The notes under the pieces were generated by a model. The model saw only the letters and a program-made list of their open reading frames with translations, did not search any database and had not been told where the DNA came from. The position numbers and the translations under genes are program-made. From positions 1 through 64,000 of the IMG/VR virus record IMGVR_UViG_3300037067_017690: a DNA stretch of 64,000 bases; one strand, written 5' to 3'. Positions within the stretch are counted from its first letter, which is position 1. Each line of letters opens with the position of its first letter. Below, one piece after another: positions 2 to 61,525 of this stretch. Origin of the DNA: a virus (taxonomy: Duplodnaviria > Caudoviricetes).

Positions 2-1246
2 TTAGAAAAATTAAAAAAATTAGAATCTGAAATTGCTAAAGATCCTAAATCGGCATATTATTATGCTCAAGATGTTATTAAAGAAAGATTTGAATTAGGA
101 GAATCTGCGATAGCTCAAAATGCTGAATGGGCATATAAGTATACTAGAGATATTATTGGAGGAAGATTCCCATTAGGAGAATCTGCGATAGCTCAAAATG
201 CTGAATGGGCATATAAGTATGCTAAAGATATCATTAAAGGAAGATGGATAGAAGGAGAACCTGTTATAGCTCAAAGTGCTCAATGGGCATATTATTATGC
301 TCGAGATGTTATTAAAGGAAGATTCTCGTTAATAGAACCAGAAATTGCTAAAGATTCTAGAGAGGCTTATTATTATGCTAAAGATGTCATCAAAGGAAGA
401 TTCCCATTAGGAGAATCTGCTATAGCTAAAGATGCTAAATTAGCATATAAGTATGCTCTAGATATTATTAGAGGAAGATGGGAATTAGGAGAACCCGTAA
501 TAGCTAAAGATGCTACATGGGCATATCAGTATGCTAAAGATATTATTAGAGGAAGATGGGAATTAGGAGAACCCGTAATAGCTAAAGATGCTACATGGGC
601 ATATCAGTATGCTAAAGATATTATTAGAGGAAGATGGAAATTAGCTGAACCCATAATAGCTACAAGTGCTCAATGGTCTTATTATTATGCTCAATATGTT
701 ATTAGAGGAAGATTTGAATTAGCGGAATCTGCTATAGCTAAAGATCCTCAATCTGCATATTGGTATGCTAAAGATATCATTAAAGGAAGATGGATAGAAG
801 GAGAACCTGTAATAGCTAAAGATCCTAAATATTTTAAAGAATATTTAACATTAATAAAATCTTATGAAATAGGATTAGGATCTACAGTAAATTTACATTC
901 AAAATCATTAAATATTTATTCTAAACAAGGACAATCTTATATTGAAAAATGGAAAACTAAAATATTTGGTCAATTCAATAATGTAACGATTAAAAGATCT
1001 GATGGCATAATAGTGAATCCATATGAATGGACATTGAAAAGAGAAGATTTTGATAAATTTCCTGCAGAATATCAAGATGCATTTATGTTATATTATATTA
1101 ATTGCAGTTTAAATGGAGCAAAACTTCCAAAGCTAAAAAGTGTTAAAAAATCTACTCTTGAAAAATGGAAAAATGCCAAAGACAAAATTGATAAATTAAG
1201 AAATGGAGAAGAAATAGGAGTAAATTTTGAAAATTTTAATAGTTGA
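2..1246 (+). CDS. 5'-truncated helical repeat protein with about 11 copies of a 26-aa repeat; includes the 1013..1246 ORF
   Basis: Frame 2 is open from base 2 (LEKLKKLESEIAKDPKSAYYYAQDVIKERF...) through 1246. Repeat consensus E(P/S)xIAKDxxxAYxYAxD(V/I)IKGR(W/F). C-terminus (SYEIGLGSTVNLHSKSL...STLEKWK) is shared with 1583..2878. Confidence 0.9.
   Translation, partial: LEKLKKLESEIAKDPKSAYYYAQDVIKERFELGESAIAQNAEWAYKYTRDIIGGRFPLGESAIAQNAEWAYKYAKDIIKGRWIEGEPVIAQSAQWAYYYARDVIKGRFSLIEPEIAKDSREAYYYAKDVIKGRFPLGESAIAKDAKLAYKYALDIIRGRWELGEPVIAKDATWAYQYAKDIIRGRWELGEPVIAKDATWAYQYAKDIIRGRWKLAEPIIATSAQWSYYYAQYVIRGRFELAESAIAKDPQSAYWYAKDIIKGRWIEGEPVIAKDPKYFKEYLTLIKSYEIGLGSTVNLHSKSLNIYSKQGQSYIEKWKTKIFGQFNNVTIKRSDGIIVNPYEWTLKREDFDKFPAEYQDAFMLYYINCSLNGAKLPKLKSVKKSTLEKWKNAKDKIDKLRNGEEIGVNFENFNS
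20..840 (+). repeat. 78-bp coding tandem repeat array
   Basis: 78-bp period; copies 461-538 and 539-616 are identical. Confidence 0.9.
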
Positions 1247-1586: not shown

Positions 1587-2878
1587 AAATATCACAATTC
1601 ATTAAACAGACTGCGACTACAGAATATACAAATAAACCACTTCAATATTTATTGACATTACCTCCGATGTCTAAAATTTTGGCAACCAGAGAAGATAATG
1701 AACGTGATTATTTTACGATATTTGGAAAAAAAGGTCTGTATGAATTTGCTGACAAAAAAGATTTGACGATGAAAGAATTAATAGATTTATTACCAGATAA
1801 AGAAGTAAAATATAGATTTGAAATAGAATTCGAAGAAGCTCCTCATGATTATGTTTCTGAAGCAAAAACTTTGCAAAGTATTATTCAAAGAAATCCGAAA
1901 CCTGAATTGATTGATAAATTAAAAGAAGTCACTTTGAAAACAAATAGCCCTAGTCTTTGTTATGATTATGCTAAAAATGTTATCAAAGGAAGATGGCCAG
2001 AAGCTGAACCGATAATAGCTCAAGATCCCGAATATGTCCCAATGTATGCAAAGAATATGATGAATGGTAAACGTTGGTCAGAAGGCGAAATAGGGATGTT
2101 GAAATCTGATCATTTTGATAGAAATTTTCATCTTTGCAAATATGCACAGTATATTATTAAAGGAAGATGGCCAGAAGCGGAAAGATTATTGTTGAATGGC
2201 AAAAAATTGTATAGAGCAGGAGAATATGCAGCAGATATAATTGGTGGACGTTGGCAATTATTGGAACAAGAAATTTTGAAGACTCCAGATAAAATGGATA
2301 CCGGACAATTAATCTTATATTGCAATGAATGTATTGGTGGACGTTGGTCAGAATTAGAAAGAAACATGCTAAGAATTATTGATTATCATACAGCTTTTGA
2401 TGAAACTAATTCGCAACTTAATTCTTTACGTTATCTCGCATATGATTATGTCAAAGAAGTTATAAAAGGTCCATGGCCAGAAATTGAGAGATATTTGTCA
2501 TACGATGGGGGTCTTTATCGAAAATATAAACAAATTACAAAATCTTTCGAAATAGGTATGGGGTCTACGGTGAATTTGCATTCAAGATCATTATCTCAAT
2601 ATTTAAAACATGGTGAAGAATTTCTCAAGAAATTTCGTGGTGCTAAATATGTTCCAGGAAAATACATGAGAGATATGACGAAACAAATTGATCTTTCGAA
2701 AGAAATAGATAACATTCCTCCACATCACCAGGATGGTTTTCTATTATATTTTGCAAATTGCCAAATGAATGGTGCATCTTTACCCGATCCAGCAAAAATC
2801 AGAAAATCCACTCTTGAAAAATGGAAATTAGCAAAAGATGCCATTGATAAAATGAGGAGTGAACAAAATGTGGGGTAA
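1583..2878 (+). CDS. Helical repeat protein, paralog of 2..1246 and 44150..44545; leader MKISQFIKQTA
   Basis: YAxxVIKGRWPEAE repeats; N-domain (L.YLLTLP.MSKI, GKKGLY) shared with 44150; C-domain shared with 2..1246. Confidence 0.85.
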   Translation: MKISQFIKQTATTEYTNKPLQYLLTLPPMSKILATREDNERDYFTIFGKKGLYEFADKKDLTMKELIDLLPDKEVKYRFEIEFEEAPHDYVSEAKTLQSIIQRNPKPELIDKLKEVTLKTNSPSLCYDYAKNVIKGRWPEAEPIIAQDPEYVPMYAKNMMNGKRWSEGEIGMLKSDHFDRNFHLCKYAQYIIKGRWPEAERLLLNGKKLYRAGEYAADIIGGRWQLLEQEILKTPDKMDTGQLILYCNECIGGRWSELERNMLRIIDYHTAFDETNSQLNSLRYLAYDYVKEVIKGPWPEIERYLSYDGGLYRKYKQITKSFEIGMGSTVNLHSRSLSQYLKHGEEFLKKFRGAKYVPGKYMRDMTKQIDLSKEIDNIPPHHQDGFLLYFANCQMNGASLPDPAKIRKSTLEKWKLAKDAIDKMRSEQNVG

Positions 2879-3776
2879 AATAATCAAAACTACTAAAAAT
2901 GCATTGATGGTCGCATTTAGGGATTTTTTAAAAATGTATGATGAAGTTCAATTCAAAGAAATAGAATTCCTTGAAGAATTCCCGTCCGATCAAAAAGATT
3001 CTCGTAATGCGTGGGTGCAAATCATTGATAAATTTCCTCAGATAGATCAACATCTTCCAATGATTGCTATTTCATCAGCTTCTGGAACAATCAAAAAAAC
3101 TTCTTTTGGATTATCTGCCGGAAGTTCTTGTACTCGTGTAAATGAACAAGGTAAATTAATTGGTGCTTGGGATATAGGAATCAGAGCTCAATTAACTGTG
3201 TCAATTGATATTGGTTGTGCAGGTCATAATGAACGAACAAATCTTACAGATGCTTTATCACATTTTATTTTGATTTATTCAGAAAAATATCAAAATCAAT
3301 TATTTCCACCTGTGAATTCTCCAGAACGTTGGAAAATAGTGTTGCCGAATCAGGTAGATCATGGAGGAGAAAGTGAAATTCCCCGTTCTGACGACGGTGT
3401 GGATCGAGTATATATTTCAAGTCTTTCCTTTCAGATAGATTTTGAAGATTGGATTACTCGTGAGATAGAACCTCTTAAAATGGGATCTCTTACTGGTAGT
3501 GCTCACCAGATTACTCAGGGTGTATTTTTTGCCGAAGATACTAAATTCTCATTTAAAGTTGGTGAAGTCTATAATTATAATGAAAAGGTTACTCAAGGTA
3601 CTGATATTATTTGGGAATTACCTCCTACTCCAGCAAATGAAAAAGATTTAGCAACTATTGAACAAGATGGAACTTTTACAGCGTTATTTCCAGGAAAGAT
3701 TCAATTAAAAGCAACTGATCATTTAAATGGGAATGTATCAGTTTTAAATATCACAATTACTGGAGAAAGTGTATAA
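2859..3776 (+). CDS. Putative tail terminator/neck protein with C-terminal Ig-like domain
   Basis: LPMIAIS motif, Big_2-like end (ATIEQDGTFTALFPGKIQLKAT); upstream of sheath. Start may be the second Met (MWGK). Confidence 0.5.
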   Translation: MNKMWGKIIKTTKNALMVAFRDFLKMYDEVQFKEIEFLEEFPSDQKDSRNAWVQIIDKFPQIDQHLPMIAISSASGTIKKTSFGLSAGSSCTRVNEQGKLIGAWDIGIRAQLTVSIDIGCAGHNERTNLTDALSHFILIYSEKYQNQLFPPVNSPERWKIVLPNQVDHGGESEIPRSDDGVDRVYISSLSFQIDFEDWITREIEPLKMGSLTGSAHQITQGVFFAEDTKFSFKVGEVYNYNEKVTQGTDIIWELPPTPANEKDLATIEQDGTFTALFPGKIQLKATDHLNGNVSVLNITITGESV

Positions 3777-10902: not shown

Positions 10903-10911
10903 ATGACTATA

Positions 10912-10926
10912 CGGTATTACTCAATT
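10912..10926 (+). promoter_or_regulatory. Putative leaderless promoter (CGGTAT-N9-ATG)
   Basis: cggtattactcaatt immediately precedes ATG 10927; same geometry at several other genes; no SD. Confidence 0.5.
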
Positions 10927-12849
10927 ATGGAATGCCCTATTTGTCATAAAATTCATAATGGTAAATTATTTTGTAGTAAGACATGTTTTCACAGCAAAGA
11001 AGGTCAACAAATAATGCTTCAGAAAAGGACTCAAACAAACCTTATCAGAATCGGATATGAAAACATTAACCAATCTCCCGAATTTAAAAAACAAAAAGTT
11101 TTGAATTGTGTTGTAAAACATGGTGTCACAAGTACCAATCAACTTCAATCTGTAAAAGATAAGAAGAAGAAAACTTATTTAAATCATCCTAAGGAATTTT
11201 ACGAAGAGATTCAGGATAAAAGAATAGCCACAACACTTGATATCTATGGTGTAGAAAATGTGTTTCAAGCTGATAGCATAAAACAACAAATTTCAGAAAC
11301 AATAAATGAAAAATATGGCAAAGATCATATTTTTCAGACTGACCATTTTAAAGAAAAATCTGCTCAAACTGATTTAGAAAAATATGGTTGTGATCGTCGA
11401 GCAGATTTGAAAGTAATTCAAAAAGGAAAAGATACTAATTTTAAGAAATATGGTGTCACTCATCCGTTAAAATTACAAGAATTTTTGGATAAACGAGAAC
11501 AAACTTGTTTAAAAAAATATAAAGTAAAAAATGTGAATTTAGTCCCTGAAATAAGGGAAAAAATTGAACAAACATGTCTTGAAAAATATGGGTTTATTAA
11601 TGCAATTCAATCTGAATATGTGCAAAATAAAGTGCAAGAAACTAGAAGAAAAAATGGTACTTTTAATACATCAAAGCCAGAAATAGATATTTTCCAAATT
11701 TTAAAAAGTGTATATCCAGATGTTAAAGCCCAATATAAATCGGATCCTCGTTATCCATTTCATTGTGATTTTTATATACCATCGGCAGATTTATTTATAG
11801 AATTACAAGCATTTTGGACGCATGGGAAAAAAATTTTTGATGAAAATGATGAGGAATGTAGACAGGTTTTAAACAAAATGGAAGAAAAATCTTTGACAGA
11901 TAAAATTTATAAAAATGCAATTTATACATGGACTGGTGGAGATGTTAAAAAAAGATTGATAGCAAAAGAAAATAAATTAAATTTTTTAGAAATATTTGAT
12001 TATAACTATGATAATATTTTGATTCAGATAAATCGTGTTATTAATGGTTTATCTTTGTCTTTTTCTCAGGAAGAACTTTTGAGAGAATATCAACTTTTTA
12101 CAATAAAAGATGGTAATTATCAGGCAATGCCTAATAAAAATAAAATAATTTTAAATTTTCAAAAACATTTTTTTGAAAATGAAATTGAATTATTTAAAAC
12201 AGATCATATCCGAAGAAGGAAATTAATAGAAAATAGATGTTTTTATTTAGATAAAAAAGAATCAGAATTAACAGATGCAGACTTATTAAGAGGATTTAAA
12301 AGATCGGGAATTTATCGAGGATTTAGTCATTTTTCTCCTTTATGGATCAAGGCATTTATTGAAGAATTTAATATCAATTCTCTTTATGATCCTTGTGGAG
12401 GATGGGGACATAGATTATTAGGAACAAAGAAAATACAATATATTTATAATGATTCAGATATCAGAACTTACGAAGGAGTAAAAATTATTGCCAATTTTTT
12501 AAAAATGGATAATAAGATATTTTATAATAATGATGCGAGTCAATTTACACCAATTGAAGATTATGAAGCAGTTTTTACTTGTCCTCCTTATTATAATATT
12601 GAAGATTATGGAAATCAATTTATTAATTATGAAGAATGGCAGAAATGGTTTGACCAATTAGTGAAATGTTCTGTTAAACAAAATACTAAATATTTTGCTT
12701 TTGTGATAAATAGTAATTTTGAAAAAGATGTTCAATTAATTTGTCAACAAAATAATCTGAGATTTTTAAAACAAATATTTATTCAAGATCATAAATCTCA
12801 TTTTAATAAACAAACCAATTCAGAATCACTTTATATCTACAATGTATAG
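10927..12849 (+). CDS. Zn-ribbon + EKYG-repeat + PD-(D/E)xK-type endonuclease fused to a DNA amino-methyltransferase
   Basis: CPIC..FCS..C; about 23-aa T.LEKYG repeats; SKPE...CDFYIP...FIELQAFWTH nuclease; LYDPCGGWGHR (SAM motif I) and FTCPPYY (motif IV). Start reassigned to MECP. Confidence 0.8.
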   Translation: MECPICHKIHNGKLFCSKTCFHSKEGQQIMLQKRTQTNLIRIGYENINQSPEFKKQKVLNCVVKHGVTSTNQLQSVKDKKKKTYLNHPKEFYEEIQDKRIATTLDIYGVENVFQADSIKQQISETINEKYGKDHIFQTDHFKEKSAQTDLEKYGCDRRADLKVIQKGKDTNFKKYGVTHPLKLQEFLDKREQTCLKKYKVKNVNLVPEIREKIEQTCLEKYGFINAIQSEYVQNKVQETRRKNGTFNTSKPEIDIFQILKSVYPDVKAQYKSDPRYPFHCDFYIPSADLFIELQAFWTHGKKIFDENDEECRQVLNKMEEKSLTDKIYKNAIYTWTGGDVKKRLIAKENKLNFLEIFDYNYDNILIQINRVINGLSLSFSQEELLREYQLFTIKDGNYQAMPNKNKIILNFQKHFFENEIELFKTDHIRRRKLIENRCFYLDKKESELTDADLLRGFKRSGIYRGFSHFSPLWIKAFIEEFNINSLYDPCGGWGHRLLGTKKIQYIYNDSDIRTYEGVKIIANFLKMDNKIFYNNDASQFTPIEDYEAVFTCPPYYNIEDYGNQFINYEEWQKWFDQLVKCSVKQNTKYFAFVINSNFEKDVQLICQQNNLRFLKQIFIQDHKSHFNKQTNSESLYIYNV

Positions 12850-38662: not shown

Positions 38663-39076
38663 ATGAAAATAGCATATTCTCTCACAGCACAAAAACCTAA
38701 TTGGCTCAATATAATTTTCTGGTTAACAGATTATATAAATGATGAATGGATTATTGTTCAACAACCTACATATTTAGGATCAATTGAATTAAATGGTAGT
38801 AGTCTTATTACAAATATAGAATCTTCAGTTAATGGATTTTATCCATTTAAAATAAAAGTCCACGCTTCTAAATTTGATGCTTTGGCTACAGGTGGTATAG
38901 GTAAAATTAAAATGATCATTGGGTCATTGAGTACCGAATTAGAAAATCCTCCAATGCATGTGTTGAAACAAACGGATAAACCAATCGATGAAAGTTCAGT
39001 AATAGAAATTAGTAAACAAAAAGGACTATGGGATTTATACCCATGGAACCAAGAAAATGATGATTTTACTAATTAA
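38663..39076 (+). CDS. Hypothetical protein
   Basis: Start reassigned to MKIAYS, after the terminator and TAAAAT-N7. Confidence 0.55.
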   Translation: MKIAYSLTAQKPNWLNIIFWLTDYINDEWIIVQQPTYLGSIELNGSSLITNIESSVNGFYPFKIKVHASKFDALATGGIGKIKMIIGSLSTELENPPMHVLKQTDKPIDESSVIEISKQKGLWDLYPWNQENDDFTN

Positions 39077-40283
39077 AGCAAATCTTTTTCTGCGTCAAAG
39101 GGATCATATCAGAGTCAAAAATTTTTCTAACTCCTGCTCCTTTGTGTTTAATAATTTTAGAAGCATTATAATCTGCTTCTAATTCTATTCCACATTTCAG
39201 ACACTTGAAGAGTGACTGACTCACTCGATTGTCCTCATGTCTGAATCCACATTCTGAACATTCCCGACTCGTAAAAGCAGGATTGACTATAGTAAAAAGA
39301 ATACCATTCTCTTCACAAAATCTGTTCAATTTCTTGTGGGTAAAATTATATACCCACCTAACATATTTATTATCACACTTCTTACGCTTCTTCAAATCTC
39401 GGAGATCTTCTACTTTAATTTCTTTAATATTTTTCAAACTGAGATTATTCACTAAATGATTAATATATTCATTTCTATAAATCAATGATTGCCTAAAATT
39501 TTTAGATCCGGAATAATTTTCTGTTGGTTGCTTCTTGCGAGAAATTTTATCATAAATTTTATGGAGATCTTTAGTTCCAATATATTCTTGTCTTGAAGTA
39601 ACTAGAAGATTTATAAATCCCATATCGATTCCTAAAATATCTCCTGAAGATTTCAAAGGAACTTCTTTTTCGTGAATAAACTTTAACCAATATCTATCTT
39701 GAAGATCTTTGCGAAGAAATATAGTTTTCTTGTGAGTCCAATCTTTATACTTATTAGAATGTTTATGGTGTTTTATAGGAAGATTAAAAGTATGAGCATA
39801 TTTTTTATTCCTCATATAGGGAGATCTAATCAGAATAAATTCATCAAAATGAATGGAATCCTTAGAATCCCACATTGTCTGATCTAATTCTATTTGAATT
39901 GTTTTGAAATCTGGAATCTTTAATTTTTCAATAATACCAATTTCTTCGAATCTCTTCTTAAGAAATACTAATTGTCTATTTTTCTTAAGAAAATATTTCA
40001 TACATTTTTTATATTTATGTAATTTATATTTCCAGAAATTTCGTCTAAGATGTTCTATTTCTAAAGATGCATGTTGATAGCATTGTTTTCTCCATTGAGA
40101 ATGTTGAAGTTTATTGATTGGCAACAATTTAGTGGACAACATCTTCTTATGAGGAAGTTCTCTAGAAATAATCTTTTCCATGTAAAATTTAAGATCCGTC
40201 TCATAATCCTTAAATAATTGATCAAGAATCAGAGTCTTCTTAGAAGTCTGAAATTTTAAAAGATGTTTAGATGTTCGAATCAT
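39069..40283 (-). CDS. tnpB: Stand-alone TnpB RNA-guided endonuclease
   Basis: RuvC LGIDMG, VEDL, ADYNAS all intact; CSEC/CLKC Zn finger; no adjacent tnpA. Start reassigned to MIRTSK. Confidence 0.88.
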   Translation of the reverse strand: MIRTSKHLLKFQTSKKTLILDQLFKDYETDLKFYMEKIISRELPHKKMLSTKLLPINKLQHSQWRKQCYQHASLEIEHLRRNFWKYKLHKYKKCMKYFLKKNRQLVFLKKRFEEIGIIEKLKIPDFKTIQIELDQTMWDSKDSIHFDEFILIRSPYMRNKKYAHTFNLPIKHHKHSNKYKDWTHKKTIFLRKDLQDRYWLKFIHEKEVPLKSSGDILGIDMGFINLLVTSRQEYIGTKDLHKIYDKISRKKQPTENYSGSKNFRQSLIYRNEYINHLVNNLSLKNIKEIKVEDLRDLKKRKKCDNKYVRWVYNFTHKKLNRFCEENGILFTIVNPAFTSRECSECGFRHEDNRVSQSLFKCLKCGIELEADYNASKIIKHKGAGVRKIFDSDMIPLTQKKICFN

Positions 40284-40339
40284 TTTTATACTATACCTGA
40301 ATAAATTTAAAAAGTTATAATTTTTCAAAGGACAATTTT

Positions 40340-40741
40340 ATGAAAAAAGCAATTTTTTATAATGGTGACAAAAAATTAAATATTCTGGTTCCAGAATCAA
40401 TTGATGAGAAATATCGGGGCATGAAGGTTTTTAAATCAGAAAAAGATTGCGAATATGATGGAATGATGTTCGAATTCGGTTCAGATATTGATTATATGAC
40501 TATGAATGGGATGAAGTTCCCATTGACCATGGTTTTTCTTGAAAAGGATATGTCATTTATTAACCAAATTGATGCAGAAATCGATGATGATAATATACCA
40601 ATACCAGAGCGTGCTAAGAGCTGTTTAGAATTGATAAAAGACTTATCCTTTTATAAGGATAAAAATAATCGTGTAGAGATCACAAACGATCAAGAAACAC
40701 GGTTTAAAAAACTCTCCAAATTAATAAGAGAATTATTTTAA
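40340..40741 (+). CDS. DUF192-family protein
   Basis: RGM...GMMFEF...TMNGMKFPLTMVFL...LEL. Confidence 0.65.
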   Translation: MKKAIFYNGDKKLNILVPESIDEKYRGMKVFKSEKDCEYDGMMFEFGSDIDYMTMNGMKFPLTMVFLEKDMSFINQIDAEIDDDNIPIPERAKSCLELIKDLSFYKDKNNRVEITNDQETRFKKLSKLIRELF

Positions 40742-40900
40742 TTCAAATACTAAATTTCCACAATCCCATATTCTATCGAAACCATTGATTTGCATATTCT
40801 CCCATTCAGTAAGTTTAGGATCAAAGATAGTAAGAATTTTAGATAGTTTGTGTTTTTGATACTTTATGCGGGATTGTAAAATATCATATTTAGTATAAAA

Positions 40901-41152
40901 ATGATTTGAAAAATTTATAAAAAGATATAAAAATTTCTCGTATACAAATAATAATTCATATACATTTTTTGAAAATTAAATTTTCAAAATGGGTAAACCA
41001 TCTACCCTTGCTTGTTTAGCAATTTTAAATTGCTTATATTTCTCTATTCTAATTTAGCTATGCTAAATTTTATAAATCTACTCAAAGTTGATTTATAAAA
41101 AATATTATAAATCATATAAAATTTTATAATAAAATTAAATATTAATCTTTAT
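40901..41152 (-). mobile_element. Non-autonomous mini-IS607 (ends plus omegaRNA-like scaffold, no ORF)
   Basis: Both ends and internal hairpins match the IS607 at 59518..61469; bounded by AT dinucleotides. Confidence 0.85.
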
Positions 41153-42029
41153 AATTTGGTCCAGAAATATCTACTAATTCAAATCCATTCTTTAAATACA
41201 CATTTCCATTACTGAATCTTCTATCTGCATAAGTAATTAAAGATTTTGGAGAATAAATCTTAATAAAGTATGATAGCAACTTACTAAATCCACCCATCAC
41301 ATTAGTATTCAATTTATTACAATACCTCAATAATTCATATTCATACTTCTTGTTATATCTTGGTTTACCAAATGTTGCCAATGCAACTAATTTTTCATTA
41401 AAAAATAATCCTAAATTGATAGATGATTTGACTTCATCTTGAATATGATTGTGATATAAAAATTCAGAACAATCTTTATATTTGAGTTGTTTTATTTCAC
41501 ATTTTCTAGCATGGATTTTTTCTTTGATTAATCCTAATTTAGTTAATATTATGGATTTTACAATTTCTTGTTTTTGAATCCATTCTGATTCAAATATGTG
41601 AATTATTTGAATTCCTTTATTTAAGAAATATTCTGATTTATTGAGATGATATGTGGGAATTTTTCCTCCTCCGATTTCGGAATGCCAATAAAGCCCATTG
41701 AATTCTATCCCTATATTTTTTGAAGGAATATAGATGTCTAATTCATATTTGTATTTCTTTTCATAATATCTTTTGTTGCATTCAATTGAAATGTGCTCTT
41801 GGAGCCAATTTTGAAGTTCTGATTCTATGTTTGAAAAGCCAGAAAATATTGGATAACATTTAAGACATCTAGGTATAATTCCATTCAAAATTGATTGATT
41901 AAAAATATTATTGCACTTTATGCATTGCCAAGGATAATTTTCATGACCATTAGTATAATCTTCTAATGAAAATAATGGCCTGATTGTTTTAAAATTCAAA
42001 ATTTTATTATAGAATTTTTTATTCTTAGT

Positions 42030-42660
42030 TTTTAATATTTTTGTTTTAATTGGATTAGATTGTTGTGGATAATTTGTTCCATATTTTTTAAGATTGGTTT
42101 GTTTTATTTGCTTTTTTATGGATTCATGTTGAAAATTCCATTCACAACCATATTTTTTAAGATTAGTTTGTTTTATTTTATTTTCAATTTTTTCAGATTG
42201 TCTTGGATTTTTTACTCCATATTTTTCAAGATTGGTTTGTTTAATCTTTTCCTTAGTTTCTTCTGATTGAAAATTATGCTCTACTCCATATTTTTCAAGA
42301 TTAGTTTGTTTAATCTTTTCTCGAATTTTTTTAGAGCTCAGGACATTTTCACAACCATATTTTTCAAGATTAGTTTGTTTTATTTTATTTTTTATTTTTT
42401 CAGATTGAAATGGATTTTCTACTCCATATTTTTTAAGATTAGTTTGCTTGGATTTTTCTTGTACATATTTATTTTTCATAGAACATTTATGTCCATATTT
42501 TTCAAGATTGGTGGCATTTTGTTTGGCCTTTACAAATATGTTTTGCGAAGAATGTTTTACTCCATATTTTTCAAGATTAGTTTGTTTTATTTTATTTTTT
42601 ATTTTTTCAGATTGAAATGGATTTTCTACTCCATATTTTTTAAGATTAGTTTGCTTGGCG
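42030..42660 (-). repeat. 69-bp coding tandem repeats (KQTNL(E/K)KYG...), about 9 copies
   Basis: 23-aa period; a near-exact block duplication 207 bp apart. Confidence 0.85.
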
Positions 42661-42806
42661 AATTTTAATTTATACGTCATCCCTTCCTTAGAAAAAGAAC
42701 ATTTTTGAGAACAAAATGTTTTATGATTATGATTTTTTCGACATACTGGGCATATACTCATAAAAAGAATATACCGCAATTATAATTTTTCAAAAGAGGA
42801 ATTTTT

Positions 42807-58355: not shown

Positions 58356-58703
58356 GTGCAGAACATTTTACAAGAAATTATATGTGAAACATATGAAAAA
58401 GAATTTCGAAGAAATCCTGAAAAAGTTGCGATGTTAATTCCATTTATACTAAAAAACAAAAAACGTATAGAACTTTTATTGATATGGGAAGGATATGTAG
58501 GAATTTTTGTAAATAATAATGGAAAATGGACTTGTTTAAGTTGTCATGATTCTTGTTGGAGAGAAGATGGCGTAAATCGTTTCTTGTCAGAATATATTGA
58601 TCAATTGTTGCATATAGATTTTACTTGTGGTTGGTATGGAAAGATCAAAATTTCAGAAATTGATGAAACATTAAGAAAAATAGAACGTGAACGCAATTCA
58701 TAA
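58356..58703 (+). CDS. Hypothetical protein
   Basis: GTG start after AAGGA; 115 aa. Confidence 0.5.
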   Translation: MQNILQEIICETYEKEFRRNPEKVAMLIPFILKNKKRIELLLIWEGYVGIFVNNNGKWTCLSCHDSCWREDGVNRFLSEYIDQLLHIDFTCGWYGKIKISEIDETLRKIERERNS

Positions 58704-58713
58704 AGGAATAAAA

Positions 58714-59526
58714 ATGACTAAAGATTTATTTGGTGATAGAATGAAAATGTATGAAACTTTAGACCCTAAAACTAAATTTATGCCTTTATTGCCAATTTGT
58801 GTACGATTGGATGGTAAAACTTTTCATTCATGGACAAAAGGATTAAAAACTCCTTATGATGATGATTTCAGAAATTGCATGGTTGAAACAACAAAATTCT
58901 TGGTAGATGAAACTGCTGCCGTAATGGGTTATACACAATCAGATGAAATAAGTTTGATTCTTTATTCTGATAGTTGCGAAAAACAAGTATATTTTGAAGG
59001 AAAAGTTAAGAAAATAATCAGTGTAATTTCAAGTCTTTGCACGGCTAAATTTAATGAAATTTCTAAAAAAGTATTTCCGAATAAGCCTTTAGCATTTTTT
59101 GATTGTAGAGCTTGGCAAGTTCCGAATCTTATTGAGACTGTCAATGTATTATTGTGGAGAGAATTAGATGCTACAAAAAATAGTGTAACTATGGCGGCAT
59201 CTTGTTATTATTCACACAAGGAATTAATGAACCAAGGGAATGCGGATAAACTAGAAATGTTGCATAAAAAAGGTGTGAATTGGAATGATTATCCTACGTA
59301 TTTTAAAAGAGGTGCATACGTAGCCAGAAGAAAAATTCTTAGGGAATTATCTGAAGAAGAAAGGATGAAAATTCCTGAACAACATAGACCAGCTAAAGAT
59401 TTAAAGGTTTCAAGAACTACTGTTATGGTATTAGAACTTCCTCCTTTACTAAAAATTAAAAACAGAGTAGAAGTAATTTTCAATGGGGGTCCAATTATTT
59501 TGGAAAGTGAATCACAAATGATTTGA
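58714..59526 (+). CDS. tRNA(His) guanylyltransferase Thg1-like protein; 3' end altered by IS607 insertion
   Basis: VRLDGKTFH, YTQSDEISL, AFFDCR, WRE.DA..NS, GVNWNDYP..FKRG. Confidence 0.92.
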   Translation: MTKDLFGDRMKMYETLDPKTKFMPLLPICVRLDGKTFHSWTKGLKTPYDDDFRNCMVETTKFLVDETAAVMGYTQSDEISLILYSDSCEKQVYFEGKVKKIISVISSLCTAKFNEISKKVFPNKPLAFFDCRAWQVPNLIETVNVLLWRELDATKNSVTMAASCYYSHKELMNQGNADKLEMLHKKGVNWNDYPTYFKRGAYVARRKILRELSEEERMKIPEQHRPAKDLKVSRTTVMVLELPPLLKIKNRVEVIFNGGPIILESESQMI

Positions 59527-59553
59527 AATTTTTATAAAAAGATATAAAAATCC

Positions 59554-60807
59554 TCATATACAAATCAATTTCGAATTTTGATTCATATACATTTCAAGAA
59601 AATTGGTCAGAATTTCTGACCAATTTTCTACTTGGGTAAACCATTTACCCATAATTCTTTTAGCAATATTTATTGCTGAATTTAAATCTCTGTCAATTTC
59701 TATAAATTTATTCAATCTTACTCTTCTTATACTCAAATCAGAATTAAATTCTCTCTTTCCTGTTAAACAATTCTCTTGTGAAGTGTAAGCTTCATTTACT
59801 TTATAAAAATCTAATCCTAGATTCTTAGCTTTATATTCTAAAAATCCTTTAAATCTACTCAATGTTCCTCTGTTCTGAGTTGATTTATTCTTACCTCTCT
59901 CTTGTGGGCTCCTTCCTCTTGTTACTAATTTCTTTGTTTTAATATCACCAACTATTAAACATCCAATATTATTTCCCGTACAAATATCAATTATTTCTCT
60001 AGATGCTTTGTGTTGAAAATCCTTGTTCTTATTAGTTATTTTTCTTGAAATCTTATTAAATCTATTCTTTATCTTCTTCCAATTATTACTAAATTTCTTT
60101 TTGATGTCTATTTTCGATTGAAGAAGACCTTTTCTTTTTTCTAATTTTTTAAATTGATTATTTTTGATTGAGAAACATTTACCAACATTTGAGAAACATT
60201 TACCAACATTTGAGAAACAAGTAGCTATTTGAGAACACCCTAAATCAATTGAAAGAAAATTATCTTTTGATAAGATTAGATTTGATGGTTGTTCAGAATA
60301 CACAAAGATAATAAAATATTTATCATCTTCTTTTTTAAAAGTAATAGTTTTTATAGTGGAATCATTAATCTCATATTTAGAAAATATTTCTGGAAGATCA
60401 ATAATTAATTTATTTTTAATGGAATTTAGATTGAGTTCTAATTGATTATTATTTATTTTGAACCCACCATTTCCTTGATTGAAATCTAACATAAATGAAG
60501 TGAAATATTTCCAACTTTTGAATTTATGAGGAAATTTAGCAGTAGAATTTTTCTTTTTGTTTAGAGCAAAGAATGATTTGATATTATTAATGAGAGTTCT
60601 GCAAGTATTTTGAGCAGATTTAGAATTGATCGTAAGATTGTTTAAATTTCTATAATTTTTATAAAATTGATTTAAATCTTTAGATTGCAATCCTTTACGA
60701 GCTTGTTCTAATAATTGATTATAAAGAATTCTATGTTCATTACTAAGAGTATTTATTTTGATCTCTTGTAAATAATTTGGGAATATTCTAATTTTTAATG
60801 ATTTCAT
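59554..60807 (-). CDS. tnpB: TnpB of IS607
   Basis: KSLKIRIFP, SIDLG, IVGD, NEAYTSQ, IDRDLNSAINI; start reassigned to MKSLK. Confidence 0.88.
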   Translation of the reverse strand: MKSLKIRIFPNYLQEIKINTLSNEHRILYNQLLEQARKGLQSKDLNQFYKNYRNLNNLTINSKSAQNTCRTLINNIKSFFALNKKKNSTAKFPHKFKSWKYFTSFMLDFNQGNGGFKINNNQLELNLNSIKNKLIIDLPEIFSKYEINDSTIKTITFKKEDDKYFIIFVYSEQPSNLILSKDNFLSIDLGCSQIATCFSNVGKCFSNVGKCFSIKNNQFKKLEKRKGLLQSKIDIKKKFSNNWKKIKNRFNKISRKITNKNKDFQHKASREIIDICTGNNIGCLIVGDIKTKKLVTRGRSPQERGKNKSTQNRGTLSRFKGFLEYKAKNLGLDFYKVNEAYTSQENCLTGKREFNSDLSIRRVRLNKFIEIDRDLNSAINIAKRIMGKWFTQVENWSEILTNFLEMYMNQNSKLICI

Positions 60808-61411
60808 CTTTAATTTCTCGAAGATTATCTTCTGTTTTTTTAATCTTGTTTTTATAAGATCTTTTTCCATATAATTTCATTGAAAAATAATGAACAATTG
60901 AAATAAGATCTTCAGCAAATTCTTGTTGTTCTGTTTTATTTTCACTTTTATCTAAAATGATTATTTCAGAATTATTTTCTCTTGCCAATTTTTCAAAAAA
61001 TTCAAATCCAAATCTTACTAACCGATCTTTATAGAAGATAATCAATTTTTCTATAGAATTTGTAAGAAAATATTTAATTAATTTTTGAAGACCTTGTCTG
61101 TTATAATTTAATGCAGAACCAAATTCAGAAATGACTTCATCAATTTGAATCCCATTTTTGAAACAAAATTCTTTGATTTTAGATTCTTGACCAATTAAAC
61201 CAGATTTTTGTTGTTTAGTAGATTCTCTGCAATAAATCACATTTAATCTTTTTGAAGTTTTGATTCCTTTGATTTTGAGTAAATGTTCATCTGTATATCT
61301 TCTATGTTTAGAATTTAATTTTATAGGAACTAATTTTTGATTTTTATCCCAATTCCTAAGAGTTTGTTTAGTAACATTTATTAATTTAGAGAATTCATTT
61401 ATTGTATACAT
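60788..61411 (-). CDS. tnpA: IS607 transposase (MerR-like HTH + serine recombinase)
   Basis: TKQTLRNWD, HRRY, IYCRES, DRLVRFGFE, FSMKLYGKRS. Confidence 0.93.
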   Translation of the reverse strand: MYTINEFSKLINVTKQTLRNWDKNQKLVPIKLNSKHRRYTDEHLLKIKGIKTSKRLNVIYCRESTKQQKSGLIGQESKIKEFCFKNGIQIDEVISEFGSALNYNRQGLQKLIKYFLTNSIEKLIIFYKDRLVRFGFEFFEKLARENNSEIIILDKSENKTEQQEFAEDLISIVHYFSMKLYGKRSYKNKIKKTEDNLREIKDEIIKN

Positions 61412-61525
61412 ATAAGAATTATTATAATCCTTATATTATTTTATAATATAAATAAATATTAATGGTCATAATTTATCAGAACAGTTTGAATTAGTTAAAA
61501 TATAGTCTGGGCGTAAAATTATTAC

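What the first reader, a model, noticed from the sequence alone, without database searches (positions are those of the whole stretch)
40901..41152. Protein-free mini-IS607 retaining the omegaRNA-like scaffold, inserted in a nuclease gene
Seen: the 250-bp insert matches the intact IS607. Right end ATGATTTGAAAAATTTATAAAAAGATATAAAAAT versus ATGATTTGAAATTTTTATAAAAAGATATAAAAAT (59518). Internal hairpins GGGTAAACCATCTACCC versus GGGTAAACCATTTACCC, and TTAGCAATTTTAAATTGCT versus TTAGCAATATTTATTGCT. Left end TAAATATTAAT-N4-AT in both. Precise excision restores a 592-aa ORF. Known: the TnpB omegaRNA overlaps the tnpB 3' end and right end, and flanking DNA supplies the guide. Inference: the element kept mainly the RNA scaffold and could borrow TnpA and TnpB in trans, with a guide starting TTTTATACTAAATATG aimed at uninterrupted alleles in co-infecting phages.
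Basis: partly seen in the sequence, partly recalled or inferred. Interest (0 to 1): 0.75.

Follow-up and report, generated by a model that had tools for sequence, protein, structure and literature searches.

The report
Gene-less IS607 mini-transposon keeping guide-RNA scaffold
A 250-base, protein-less offshoot of a jumping gene in a large phage has split a homing-endonuclease gene. It keeps the folded guide-RNA part used by the jumping gene's TnpB nuclease, which makes it a clear new example of a kind of selfish DNA that is already described.

Summary
Window 40901-41150 (minus strand) is a 250-bp derivative of the resident IS607 element (59518-61467; serine-recombinase TnpA plus TnpB). It has no ORF.

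- **What it keeps:** the left end up to the tnpA start codon, the right end, and the hairpins H0-H5 that lie in the last part of tnpB.
- **Insertion site:** both copies sit after AAATTAT, with AT at both junctions. Removing the insert restores a 592-aa homing-endonuclease ORF whose junction (GPNYFY) matches intact relatives.
- **The hairpins are a real structured RNA in the tnpB sense:** in 12 related elements 84% of cells pair, against about 40% when the partners are slid, with compensatory changes at synonymous sites.
- **Independent test:** a covariance model built only from elements outside this window finds the mini at 53 bits, against 21 bits for the best background match.

Not shown: transcription, TnpB loading, cleavage, or transposition as a mini. 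Only one copy exists, and no empty site was found.

Stand-alone mobilised omegaRNAs and omegaRNA-bearing ORF-less elements are already described, and this scan has reported similar IS607 minis on other DNA (archaea and phages). Verdict: new member of a known kind. Local particulars are the phage host, the AT core with a TTAT target motif, and the position inside a homing-endonuclease gene.

The parts
40901..41150 (-). Mini-IS607: 250-bp ORF-less derivative (left end + H0 remnant + H1-H5 + right end)
   Evidence: Homology to the full copy. Boundaries set by intact homologues of the target protein and by frame restoration. No ORF of 50 aa or more inside it.
41151..41157 (-). Target-site motif AAATTAT just 5' of the left end. 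Its last two bases are the AT core dinucleotide, and it is the candidate TAM (TTAT).
   Evidence: The same heptamer flanks the full copy at 61468-61474. TTAT also stands 5' of the left end in L048, L049, L062 and L063.
40885..40900 (-). 16-nt right flank (TTTTATACTAAATATG) that would be read as the guide of an omegaRNA made from the mini
   Evidence: It lies directly after the right-end terminus ...CAAATCAT. In the occupied site it is preceded by TCAT, not TTAT.
41094..41150 (-). Left end of the mini, homologous to the full left end up to the tnpA start codon
   Evidence: 81% identity over 64 nt including the target heptamer, E 5e-14.
41070..41098 (-). H0 remnant hairpin, with the tip deleted relative to about 59851-59886 of the full copy
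   Evidence: The same hairpin, with compensatory changes, occurs in most relatives. Fold.
40908..41034 (-). Scaffold hairpins of the mini: H1 41018-41034, H2 40991-41007, H3 40967-40989, H4 40940-40963, H5 40908-40937
   Evidence: Folds. Covariance model R1, built without any sequence of this window, matches 40954-41034 at 53 bits, E about 2e-9.
41151..42761 (-). 5' part of the interrupted homing-endonuclease gene (DUF7487 repeats + nuclease + C-terminal domain). It now ends in YKD-stop read from the element.
   Evidence: Pfam DUF7487. PHROG 3339 'homing endonuclease', E 8e-129.
40733..40900 (-). 3' part of the same gene (55 codons + stop)
   Evidence: Translation. It aligns with the C-termini of intact relatives.
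59518..61467 (-). Autonomous IS607-family element (1950 bp): TnpA 60788-61411 and TnpB 59554-60807. The structured 3' region is H1 59662-59677, H2 59633-59651, H3 59597-59629, H4 59556-59590, H5 59526-59553.
   Evidence: Pfam Resolvase + MerR HTH; OrfB_IS605 + Cas12f1-like TNB. Fold at -52.8 kcal/mol, z -6.8. R1 match at 98 bits.
60168..60219 (-). Perfect 21-bp tandem duplication (2.5 copies) inside tnpB. It adds 7 aa just after the RuvC-I aspartate.
   Evidence: The insertion is absent from all homologues aligned.
58687..59526 (+). Thg1-like gene whose 3' end is interrupted by the full IS. Its last two codons and its stop come from the IS right end.
   Evidence: Reading across the inferred empty site extends the ORF by a few codons (sequence reading).

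Best explanation
This is a non-autonomous, ORF-less deletion derivative of the phage's own IS607-family element. It amounts to a stand-alone, mobilisable omegaRNA cassette.

What it retains:
- the left end (the recombinase site and the tnpA upstream region);
- the right end;
- the hairpins that in the parent overlap the last ~340 nt of tnpB and end at the transposon boundary.

It lies in the same orientation as the homing-endonuclease gene it split.

Most likely mechanism:
1. The serine recombinase TnpA of the full copy inserted it, or a longer ancestor, at a TTAT site by crossover at an AT dinucleotide, and can move it in trans.
2. Transcription from the left end, or read-through from the host gene, gives an RNA that ends in scaffold plus 16-20 nt of flank.
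3. TnpB from the full copy binds this RNA in trans.
4. TnpB then cuts DNA that has TTAT followed by that flank. That is the empty site, either after excision or in a co-infecting phage genome.
5. Recombinational repair from an occupied genome copy puts the element back.
6. The occupied site escapes cutting because it reads TCAT instead of TTAT.

Shown here: derivation, boundaries, target motif, conserved RNA structure, and retention of that structure in the mini. Inferred: transcription, TnpB binding, cleavage and homing.
For: - **Derivation:** both ends are shared with the full copy, and the mini is closer to the resident copy than to any relative.
- **Boundaries and core:** intact homologues fix the empty site as ...AAATTAT|TTTTATAC..., with AT at both junctions in both copies.
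- **Target motif:** TTAT lies 5' of the left end in 6 of 6 elements, and right ends finish in (T/C)CAT.
- **Structure in the family:** RNAalifold finds H2 and H3, with 10 of 14 pairs compensatory. The named structure H1-H4 pairs in 83.9% of cells against 28-45% when slid, with covariation 0.378 against 0.06-0.12 and 0 of 500 shuffles reaching it.
- **Synonymous-site covariation:** it includes synonymous third positions in the SAINIA codons, and the Gly third position against the Thr/Ala first position.
- **Strand:** G.U cells number 25, against 11 A.C cells, which favours the tnpB-sense strand.
- **Independent folds:** separate folds of each relative give the same five-hairpin order.
- **Retention in the mini:** model R1, built from outside sequences only, scores 53 bits against 21 for the best background match. 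37 of 45 shared pairs are identical and 4 changed pairs still pair, including one double change. The H0, H3 and H4 deletions remove only tips.
- **Partners are present:** TnpA and TnpB ORFs are open with their family domains.
- **Published precedent:** stand-alone omegaRNAs act in trans (PMC10691335). PATE-like ORF-less elements encode omegaRNAs (PMC10055086). In IS607 the TAM equals the recombinase target site and TnpB cuts the donor joint (PMC10690162). In ISXfa1 one base (GGG against CGG) separates target from self (10.1101/2023.08.09.552727).
Against: - There is a single copy, so nothing shows that it ever moved as a mini.
- No empty site was found in viral contigs.
- Substitutions between mini and full copy are not significantly rarer in stems than elsewhere (11 of 91 against 9 of 41, p 0.19). 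Two H5 pairs are broken.
- About 125 nt between H0 and H1 of the parental region are lost, and it is not known where this family's omegaRNA starts.
- Promoter scans say nothing in this AT-rich DNA.
- The partner TnpB has a 7-aa in-frame duplication next to RuvC-I. It also lacks the canonical RuvC-II glutamate and the zinc-finger cysteines, although its whole clade shares those last two traits.
- There is no expression data.
Confidence: 0.6

Rival explanations
1. Dead relic. A full IS607 once inserted here and has since been gutted in place by successive deletions. What remains is neither mobile nor a working guide RNA, and the hairpins survive only because little time has passed or because deletions tend to fall at hairpin tips.
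For: - Single copy.
- At least five separate internal deletions.
- The stem versus non-stem substitution test is not significant.
- H5 is weakened by two broken pairs.
- The H0-H1 interval is lost.
- This scan reported a decayed 123-bp relic of the same kind in another phage (e1-5401882).
Against: - Three of the deletions remove only hairpin tips and leave every basal pair.
- H3 and H4 lengths of the mini fall within the range seen in intact relatives.
- Four changed pairs stay paired, including one double compensatory change and one G.U that becomes G-C.
- The terminal 34 nt and the left end stay 81-91% identical.
- R1 still scores 53 bits.
Confidence: 0.3
2. A mobilisable mini-transposon only. 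TnpA can move it through its ends, but the retained tnpB-derived hairpins are passengers or recombinase-binding DNA, not a functional guide RNA.
For: - Both ends are well kept.
- IS607 recombinases bind subterminal DNA at both ends (general knowledge of the family; PMC10690162 used 581-bp left-end and 221-bp right-end mini substrates).
- The upstream part of the putative scaffold is missing.
Against: - In the family the hairpins covary as a single-strand structure with a sense-strand G.U excess. Double-stranded protein-binding sites would not give that.
- H1-H4 lie 60-160 nt inside the right end and are kept, whereas the coding sequence between H0 and H1 was lost.
Confidence: 0.07
3. A host-gene regulator. 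The insert is kept because it truncates or terminates the homing-endonuclease gene, for instance through the H2 hairpin acting as a terminator, and so tames a nuclease that is costly to the phage.
For: - The insert ends the ORF after three codons.
- H2 followed by a T-run scores as terminator-like, but on the plus strand.
Against: - The terminator-like site is on the strand opposite to the gene.
- Any frame-breaking insert would truncate the gene just as well.
- This reading does not explain why the transposon ends and the hairpins are kept.
Confidence: 0.03

Closest known systems
Stand-alone (effector-less) mobilised omegaRNAs of OMEGA systems (Altae-Tran et al. 2021, as summarised in PMC10691335)
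   Same: - ORF-less.
- Lies in the same genome as an effector-bearing element.
- Scaffold abuts a transposon end, with the guide taken from the flank.
- Expected to work in trans with the compatible nuclease.
   Different: - Here the parent is an IS607 (serine recombinase) element in a phage.
- There is one copy only, and activity is untested.
PATE-like ORF-less IS200/IS605 elements that encode omegaRNAs (Geobacillus stearothermophilus; PMC10055086)
   Same: A minimal element made of the left and right ends plus the omegaRNA, dependent on TnpA and TnpB supplied in trans.
   Different: - Those move as single strands through a Y1 transposase that reads end hairpins.
- This one has IS607 ends, no such transposase, and an AT core dinucleotide at both junctions.
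IS607-family TnpA(Ser)-TnpB elements: C. botulinum CboIStron (PMC10690162) and Xylella ISXfa1 (10.1101/2023.08.09.552727)
   Same: - Same gene order.
- No inverted repeats and no target duplication.
- Same dinucleotide at both junctions.
- The target-site motif doubles as the TAM.
- The right end differs from the TAM by one base, which would spare the occupied site.
   Different: - Core AT and motif TTAT instead of GG and TGGG/GGG.
- No group I intron.
- The TnpB clade lacks the canonical RuvC-II glutamate and the zinc-finger cysteines.
- The element studied here is the natural gene-less derivative, not the parent.
Fanzor2 / 'pro-Fanzor' IS607 TnpBs with a shifted catalytic glutamate (10.1101/2023.08.09.552727; mimivirus L79, PDB 9b0l)
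   Same: - The partner TnpB has Gly where ISDra2 TnpB has the RuvC-II Glu.
- The mimivirus Fanzor2 is its second-best solved relative.
   Different: - RuvC-I reads IDLG here. The DPG signature is seen only in L051.
- The host is a bacteriophage, and membership in that clade was not tested by a tree.

Membership tests
IS607 family (as non-autonomous derivative) | Parent element encodes a MerR-HTH serine recombinase TnpA followed by tnpB | tested here: met
   Pfam Resolvase, MerR_1, OrfB_IS605 and Cas12f1-like TNB on 60788-61411 and 59554-60870. PHROG transposase families.
IS607 family (as non-autonomous derivative) | Both ends of the mini are homologous to the ends of the autonomous copy | tested here: met
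   Left end 81% over 64 nt (E 5e-14). Right-end region E 1e-18, with terminal 31 of 34 nt identical.
IS607 family (as non-autonomous derivative) | No terminal inverted repeats, no target-site duplication, same core dinucleotide at both junctions | tested here: met
   AT at both junctions of both copies. The empty site reconstructed from intact homologues keeps a single AT.
IS607 family (as non-autonomous derivative) | Evidence of transposition as a mini (several copies at different sites, or occupied and empty alleles) | tested here: not met
   One copy in the 105,868-bp record. No exact match to a mini-specific stretch or to the empty site in IMG/VR.
Stand-alone mobilised omegaRNA / PATE-like omegaRNA element | No protein-coding gene inside the element | tested here: met
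   No ORF of 50 aa or more within 40901-41150. The former tnpB frame carries stops (sequence reading).
Stand-alone mobilised omegaRNA / PATE-like omegaRNA element | Keeps the structured RNA region of the cognate tnpB 3' end and right end | tested here: met
   R1, built from 11 outside elements, matches at 53 bits, E about 2e-9, covering H1-H3 and the start of H4. H4, H5 and an H0 remnant appear in the folds.
Stand-alone mobilised omegaRNA / PATE-like omegaRNA element | That region is a conserved RNA structure in the family | tested here: met
   covariation, slide control, and sense-strand G.U excess.
Stand-alone mobilised omegaRNA / PATE-like omegaRNA element | Compatible effector nuclease encoded elsewhere in the same genome | tested here: inconclusive
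   TnpB ORF is open, with the RuvC-I Asp and the RuvC-III DRDLN motif. It also carries a 7-aa duplication next to RuvC-I, so activity is unknown.
Stand-alone mobilised omegaRNA / PATE-like omegaRNA element | RNA is made, bound by TnpB and guides cleavage | not testable with these tools
   No expression or biochemical data. Promoter scans are uninformative.
MITE in the strict sense | Terminal inverted repeats and a target-site duplication | tested here: not met
   The ends are unlike each other, and only the 2-bp crossover core recurs. 'MITE-like' is therefore loose usage.
IStron (group I intron fused to IS607/IS605) | Group I intron at the left end | tested here: not met
   No Rfam match in the window at gathering score, nor at E up to 1 around either copy.

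The most novel reading that the evidence does not exclude
The phage runs a two-locus RNA-guided homing drive. One TnpB gene is armed in trans by a gene-less guide cassette that sits inside a protein-guided homing-endonuclease gene. In mixed infections TnpB would then cut the intact allele of related phages and convert it. That would spread the cassette and its flanking markers while knocking out a rival selfish nuclease.
Probability: 0.2. Interest if true: 0.6.

Novelty: new member of a known kind. Interest (0 to 1): 0.35.

Why it matters
The case shows that the 'guide-only' hitch-hiker design of TnpB transposons also occurs for IS607 elements in large bacteriophages. There, co-infection offers empty alleles to cut, so such cassettes could bias inheritance between phages.

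It also yields testable parameters for one phage TnpB clade:
- a candidate TAM (TTAT);
- an AT crossover core;
- an omegaRNA scaffold that lies almost wholly inside the coding sequence;
- a naturally shortened version of that scaffold, which hints at which hairpin parts can be dispensed with.

None of this changes current understanding. It is a clean further example of a known kind.

Tried and rejected
- **Hairpin-pattern scan:** a 16-base hairpin pattern scanned over IMG/VR gave 39 hits. Only one (L037) was related and the rest were chance.
- **First relatives search:** The search for related loci with the single TnpB found nothing. The alignment-based searches worked.
- **Exact scans:** neither the reconstructed empty site nor a mini-specific stretch was found in IMG/VR.
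- **Purifying selection on the mini's stems:** comparing substitutions in stems against non-stems gave p 0.19. My first hand count had overstated the contrast, so I do not claim selection from this pair alone.
- **Promoters:** sigma-70 scans gave counts equal to shuffles.
- **Rfam:** no match.
- **Possible third copy:** a 36-nt right-end-like match at 98432-98468 of the record is AT-rich intergenic DNA with no further homology, so I treat it as chance.
- **Other targets for the guide:** two 3-mismatch matches to TTAT plus guide at 367 and 679 lie in an unrelated repeat protein (YYYAKD repeats) and carry TAM-proximal mismatches, so they are not targets.
- **The nearby second TnpB-like gene as partner:** 39069-40328 has no sequence similarity to the IS607 TnpB and no structured 3' region (z +0.8). 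Rejected.
- **Alignment limits:** MAFFT does not put the 3' halves of H4 and H5 in register across clades, so they were left out of the model and judged from single folds.

Full report
**Setting.** The window is the first 64 kb of a 105,868-bp IMG/VR virus record. CheckV rates it 42% complete and its G+C is 30%. Earlier notes and the gene content point to a large tailed phage.

**The observation.**
- In the element's own orientation (minus strand), the insert shares 64 nt at 81% identity with the left end of the full element. That stretch runs from the heptamer AAATTAT to the first base of the tnpA start codon.
- It also shares about 200 nt with the tnpB 3' end and right end (E 5e-14 and 1e-18).
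- The full element is a canonical IS607 arrangement. TnpA carries a MerR-type HTH and a resolvase domain. It overlaps the start of TnpB, which carries OrfB_IS605 and Cas12f1-like TNB domains.

**Boundaries.**
- Deleting 252 bp does not restore the frame of the interrupted gene. Deleting 250 or 253 bp does.
- Intact relatives of the target protein read PNYFY across the site: L077 at 52% identity and P0004, 591 aa at 72% identity.
- The empty site was therefore ...CCAAATTAT|TTTTATACT..., the element is 40901-41150, and AT stands at both junctions.
- The full copy has the same geometry. AAATTAT lies before its left end (61468-61474), and its right end also finishes in ...CAAATCAT (59518).
- This is what a serine recombinase that crosses over at a 2-bp core should leave. 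Published IS607 elements do the same with GG (PMC10690162; 10.1101/2023.08.09.552727).
- In four further related elements the sequence just 5' of the point where left-end similarity begins also ends in TTAT (L048, L049, L062, L063). Right ends across the family finish in A(A/C)(T/C)CAT.
It is a freestanding homing-endonuclease gene: PHROG 3339 at E 8e-129, with DUF7487 repeats.

**Is the retained region an RNA scaffold?** I collected 11 further elements of this TnpB clade, at 43-57% protein identity, from viral, metagenomic and one MAG contig.
- Each one, folded alone, gives the same row of five hairpins (H1-H5) from the RuvC-III codons to the right end, although the sequences differ.
- RNAalifold recovers H2 and H3, with compensatory changes in 10 of 14 pairs.
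- For a named H1-H4 structure on 12 sequences, 83.9% of cells pair against 28-45% when the 3' partners are slid. The covariation score is 0.378 against 0.06-0.12, and no shuffle out of 500 reaches it.
- Some of the covariation is hard to explain by protein constraint. One case pairs two synonymous third positions in the Ala and Ile codons of SAINIA (A-U, U-A, G-C). Another pairs the third base of a Gly codon with the first base of the Thr/Ala codon (GGT with ACC, GGC with GCC).
- G.U cells outnumber A.C cells 25 to 11, which favours the tnpB-sense strand.
- A sixth hairpin, H0, lies about 330 nt from the right end in the NKSTQN...SRFK codons. It recurs with compensatory changes in most relatives.
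- No Rfam family matches.
- By position, strand and analogy with ISDra2, ISXfa1 and CboIStron, this is the omegaRNA. No RNA data exist to confirm it.

**Does the mini keep it?**
- I built a covariance model from the 11 outside elements only, with nothing from this window. It finds the full copy at 98 bits and the mini at 53 bits (E about 2e-9, H1 to the start of H4). The best background match in 64 kb scores 21 bits.
- Of 45 base pairs present in both copies, 37 are identical. Four changed but still pair: one double change A-U to U-A, one G.U to G-C, one A-U to G.U and one G.U to A-U. Four are broken, two of them in H5.
- The deletions in H0, H3 and H4 remove only hairpin tips. The resulting lengths lie within the range of intact relatives.
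- Against a strong claim of selection, substitutions are not significantly rarer in stems than elsewhere (p 0.19). About 125 nt between H0 and H1 are also gone.
- The mini is closest to the resident full copy.

**Copies and targets.**
- The record holds no third copy.
- Four other phage records with related elements hold only their one full scaffold each.
- Exact scans of IMG/VR found neither the empty site nor another mini.
- In the occupied site the guide-matching flank is preceded by TCAT. In the empty site it would be preceded by TTAT. This one-base difference parallels the GGG/CGG self-avoidance described for ISXfa1 (10.1101/2023.08.09.552727).

**The partners.**
- TnpA has the conserved serine region, YCREST.
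- TnpB has the RuvC-I Asp (IDLG) and the RuvC-III DRDLN motif.
- Like its whole clade, TnpB has Gly where ISDra2 TnpB has the RuvC-II Glu (VGD), and it lacks the zinc-finger cysteines. Its second-best solved relative is mimivirus Fanzor2. Such rearranged active sites are described in the literature (PMC10691335; 10.1101/2023.08.09.552727).
- A perfect 21-bp tandem duplication adds 7 aa beside RuvC-I in this copy only. Whether the enzyme still works is unknown.

**Interpretation.** The feature is a gene-less IS607 derivative that keeps its ends and the guide-RNA scaffold. The most likely working model is the published one for stand-alone omegaRNAs and PATE-like elements. TnpA moves it in trans. 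The transcript carries the 16-20-nt flank as guide and is helped by co-orientation with the host gene. TnpB in trans then cuts TTAT-flanked empty sites, so that recombination restores or spreads the insert. The main rival is a relic decaying in place.

**Novelty.** Stand-alone mobilised omegaRNAs that act in trans, and ORF-less omegaRNA-bearing elements, are already in the literature (PMC10691335, PMC10055086). This scan has already reported IS607-derived guide-only minis in archaea and phages on other DNA. This is therefore a new member of a known kind. Its particulars are the phage host, the AT/TTAT site, a scaffold buried in coding sequence, and insertion into a homing-endonuclease gene.

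Noticed in passing
window 39069-40328 (-): A second, very divergent TnpB-like gene (419 aa) lies about 570 bp from the mini. It matches the Cas12f1-like TNB domain and PHROG 506, and it has a CxxC pair and a D-x-N-A-S-x-I-I RuvC-III-like motif. It has no TnpA, no similarity to the IS607 TnpB, and no structured 3' region (z +0.8).
   Followed up: partly
window 58687-59526 (+) with 61468-61510: The full IS607 sits in the last codons of a Thg1-like (tRNA-His guanylyltransferase) gene. The IS right end supplies the last two codons and the stop. Reading across the inferred empty site would give a tail a few residues longer.
   Followed up: partly
window 60168-60219: A perfect 21-bp tandem duplication (2.5 copies) inside tnpB adds CFSNVGK next to the RuvC-I aspartate. 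It is absent from all relatives, so it is a recent event that may affect activity.
   Followed up: partly
A4 alignment; window 59554-60807 (-): This phage TnpB clade has Gly in place of the canonical RuvC-II glutamate (motif VGD), an invariant NEAYTSQ glutamate further on, and no zinc-finger cysteine pairs. Mimivirus Fanzor2 (9b0l) scores better than ISDra2 TnpB. It may belong to the rearranged-active-site lineages.
   Followed up: partly
window 10903-12849 (+): A paralogue of the interrupted homing-endonuclease gene shares the N-terminal zinc-ribbon and DUF7487 repeats (PHROG 3339/12131) but has a different C-terminal half.
   Followed up: no
window 2-1246 (+): A 5'-open ORF made of about ten tandem ~30-aa repeats (…AYYYAKDVIKGRF.LGE..IA…). 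By chance it gives two 3-mismatch matches to the TTAT-plus-guide string.
   Followed up: no
L048 (IMGVR_UViG_3300009181_000033, 298 kb, terminal repeats) 1700-3760: A related complete IS607 lies in a 298-kb jumbo phage. Its H2 hairpin differs from the window's by a compensatory T-A to C-G change that couples a synonymous Gly codon change to a Thr-to-Ala change.
   Followed up: partly
G000 record 98432-98468 (L005 about 1500-1537): A 36-nt AT-rich intergenic stretch is 84% similar to the IS607 right-end terminus. It has no further homology and is probably chance.
   Followed up: partly
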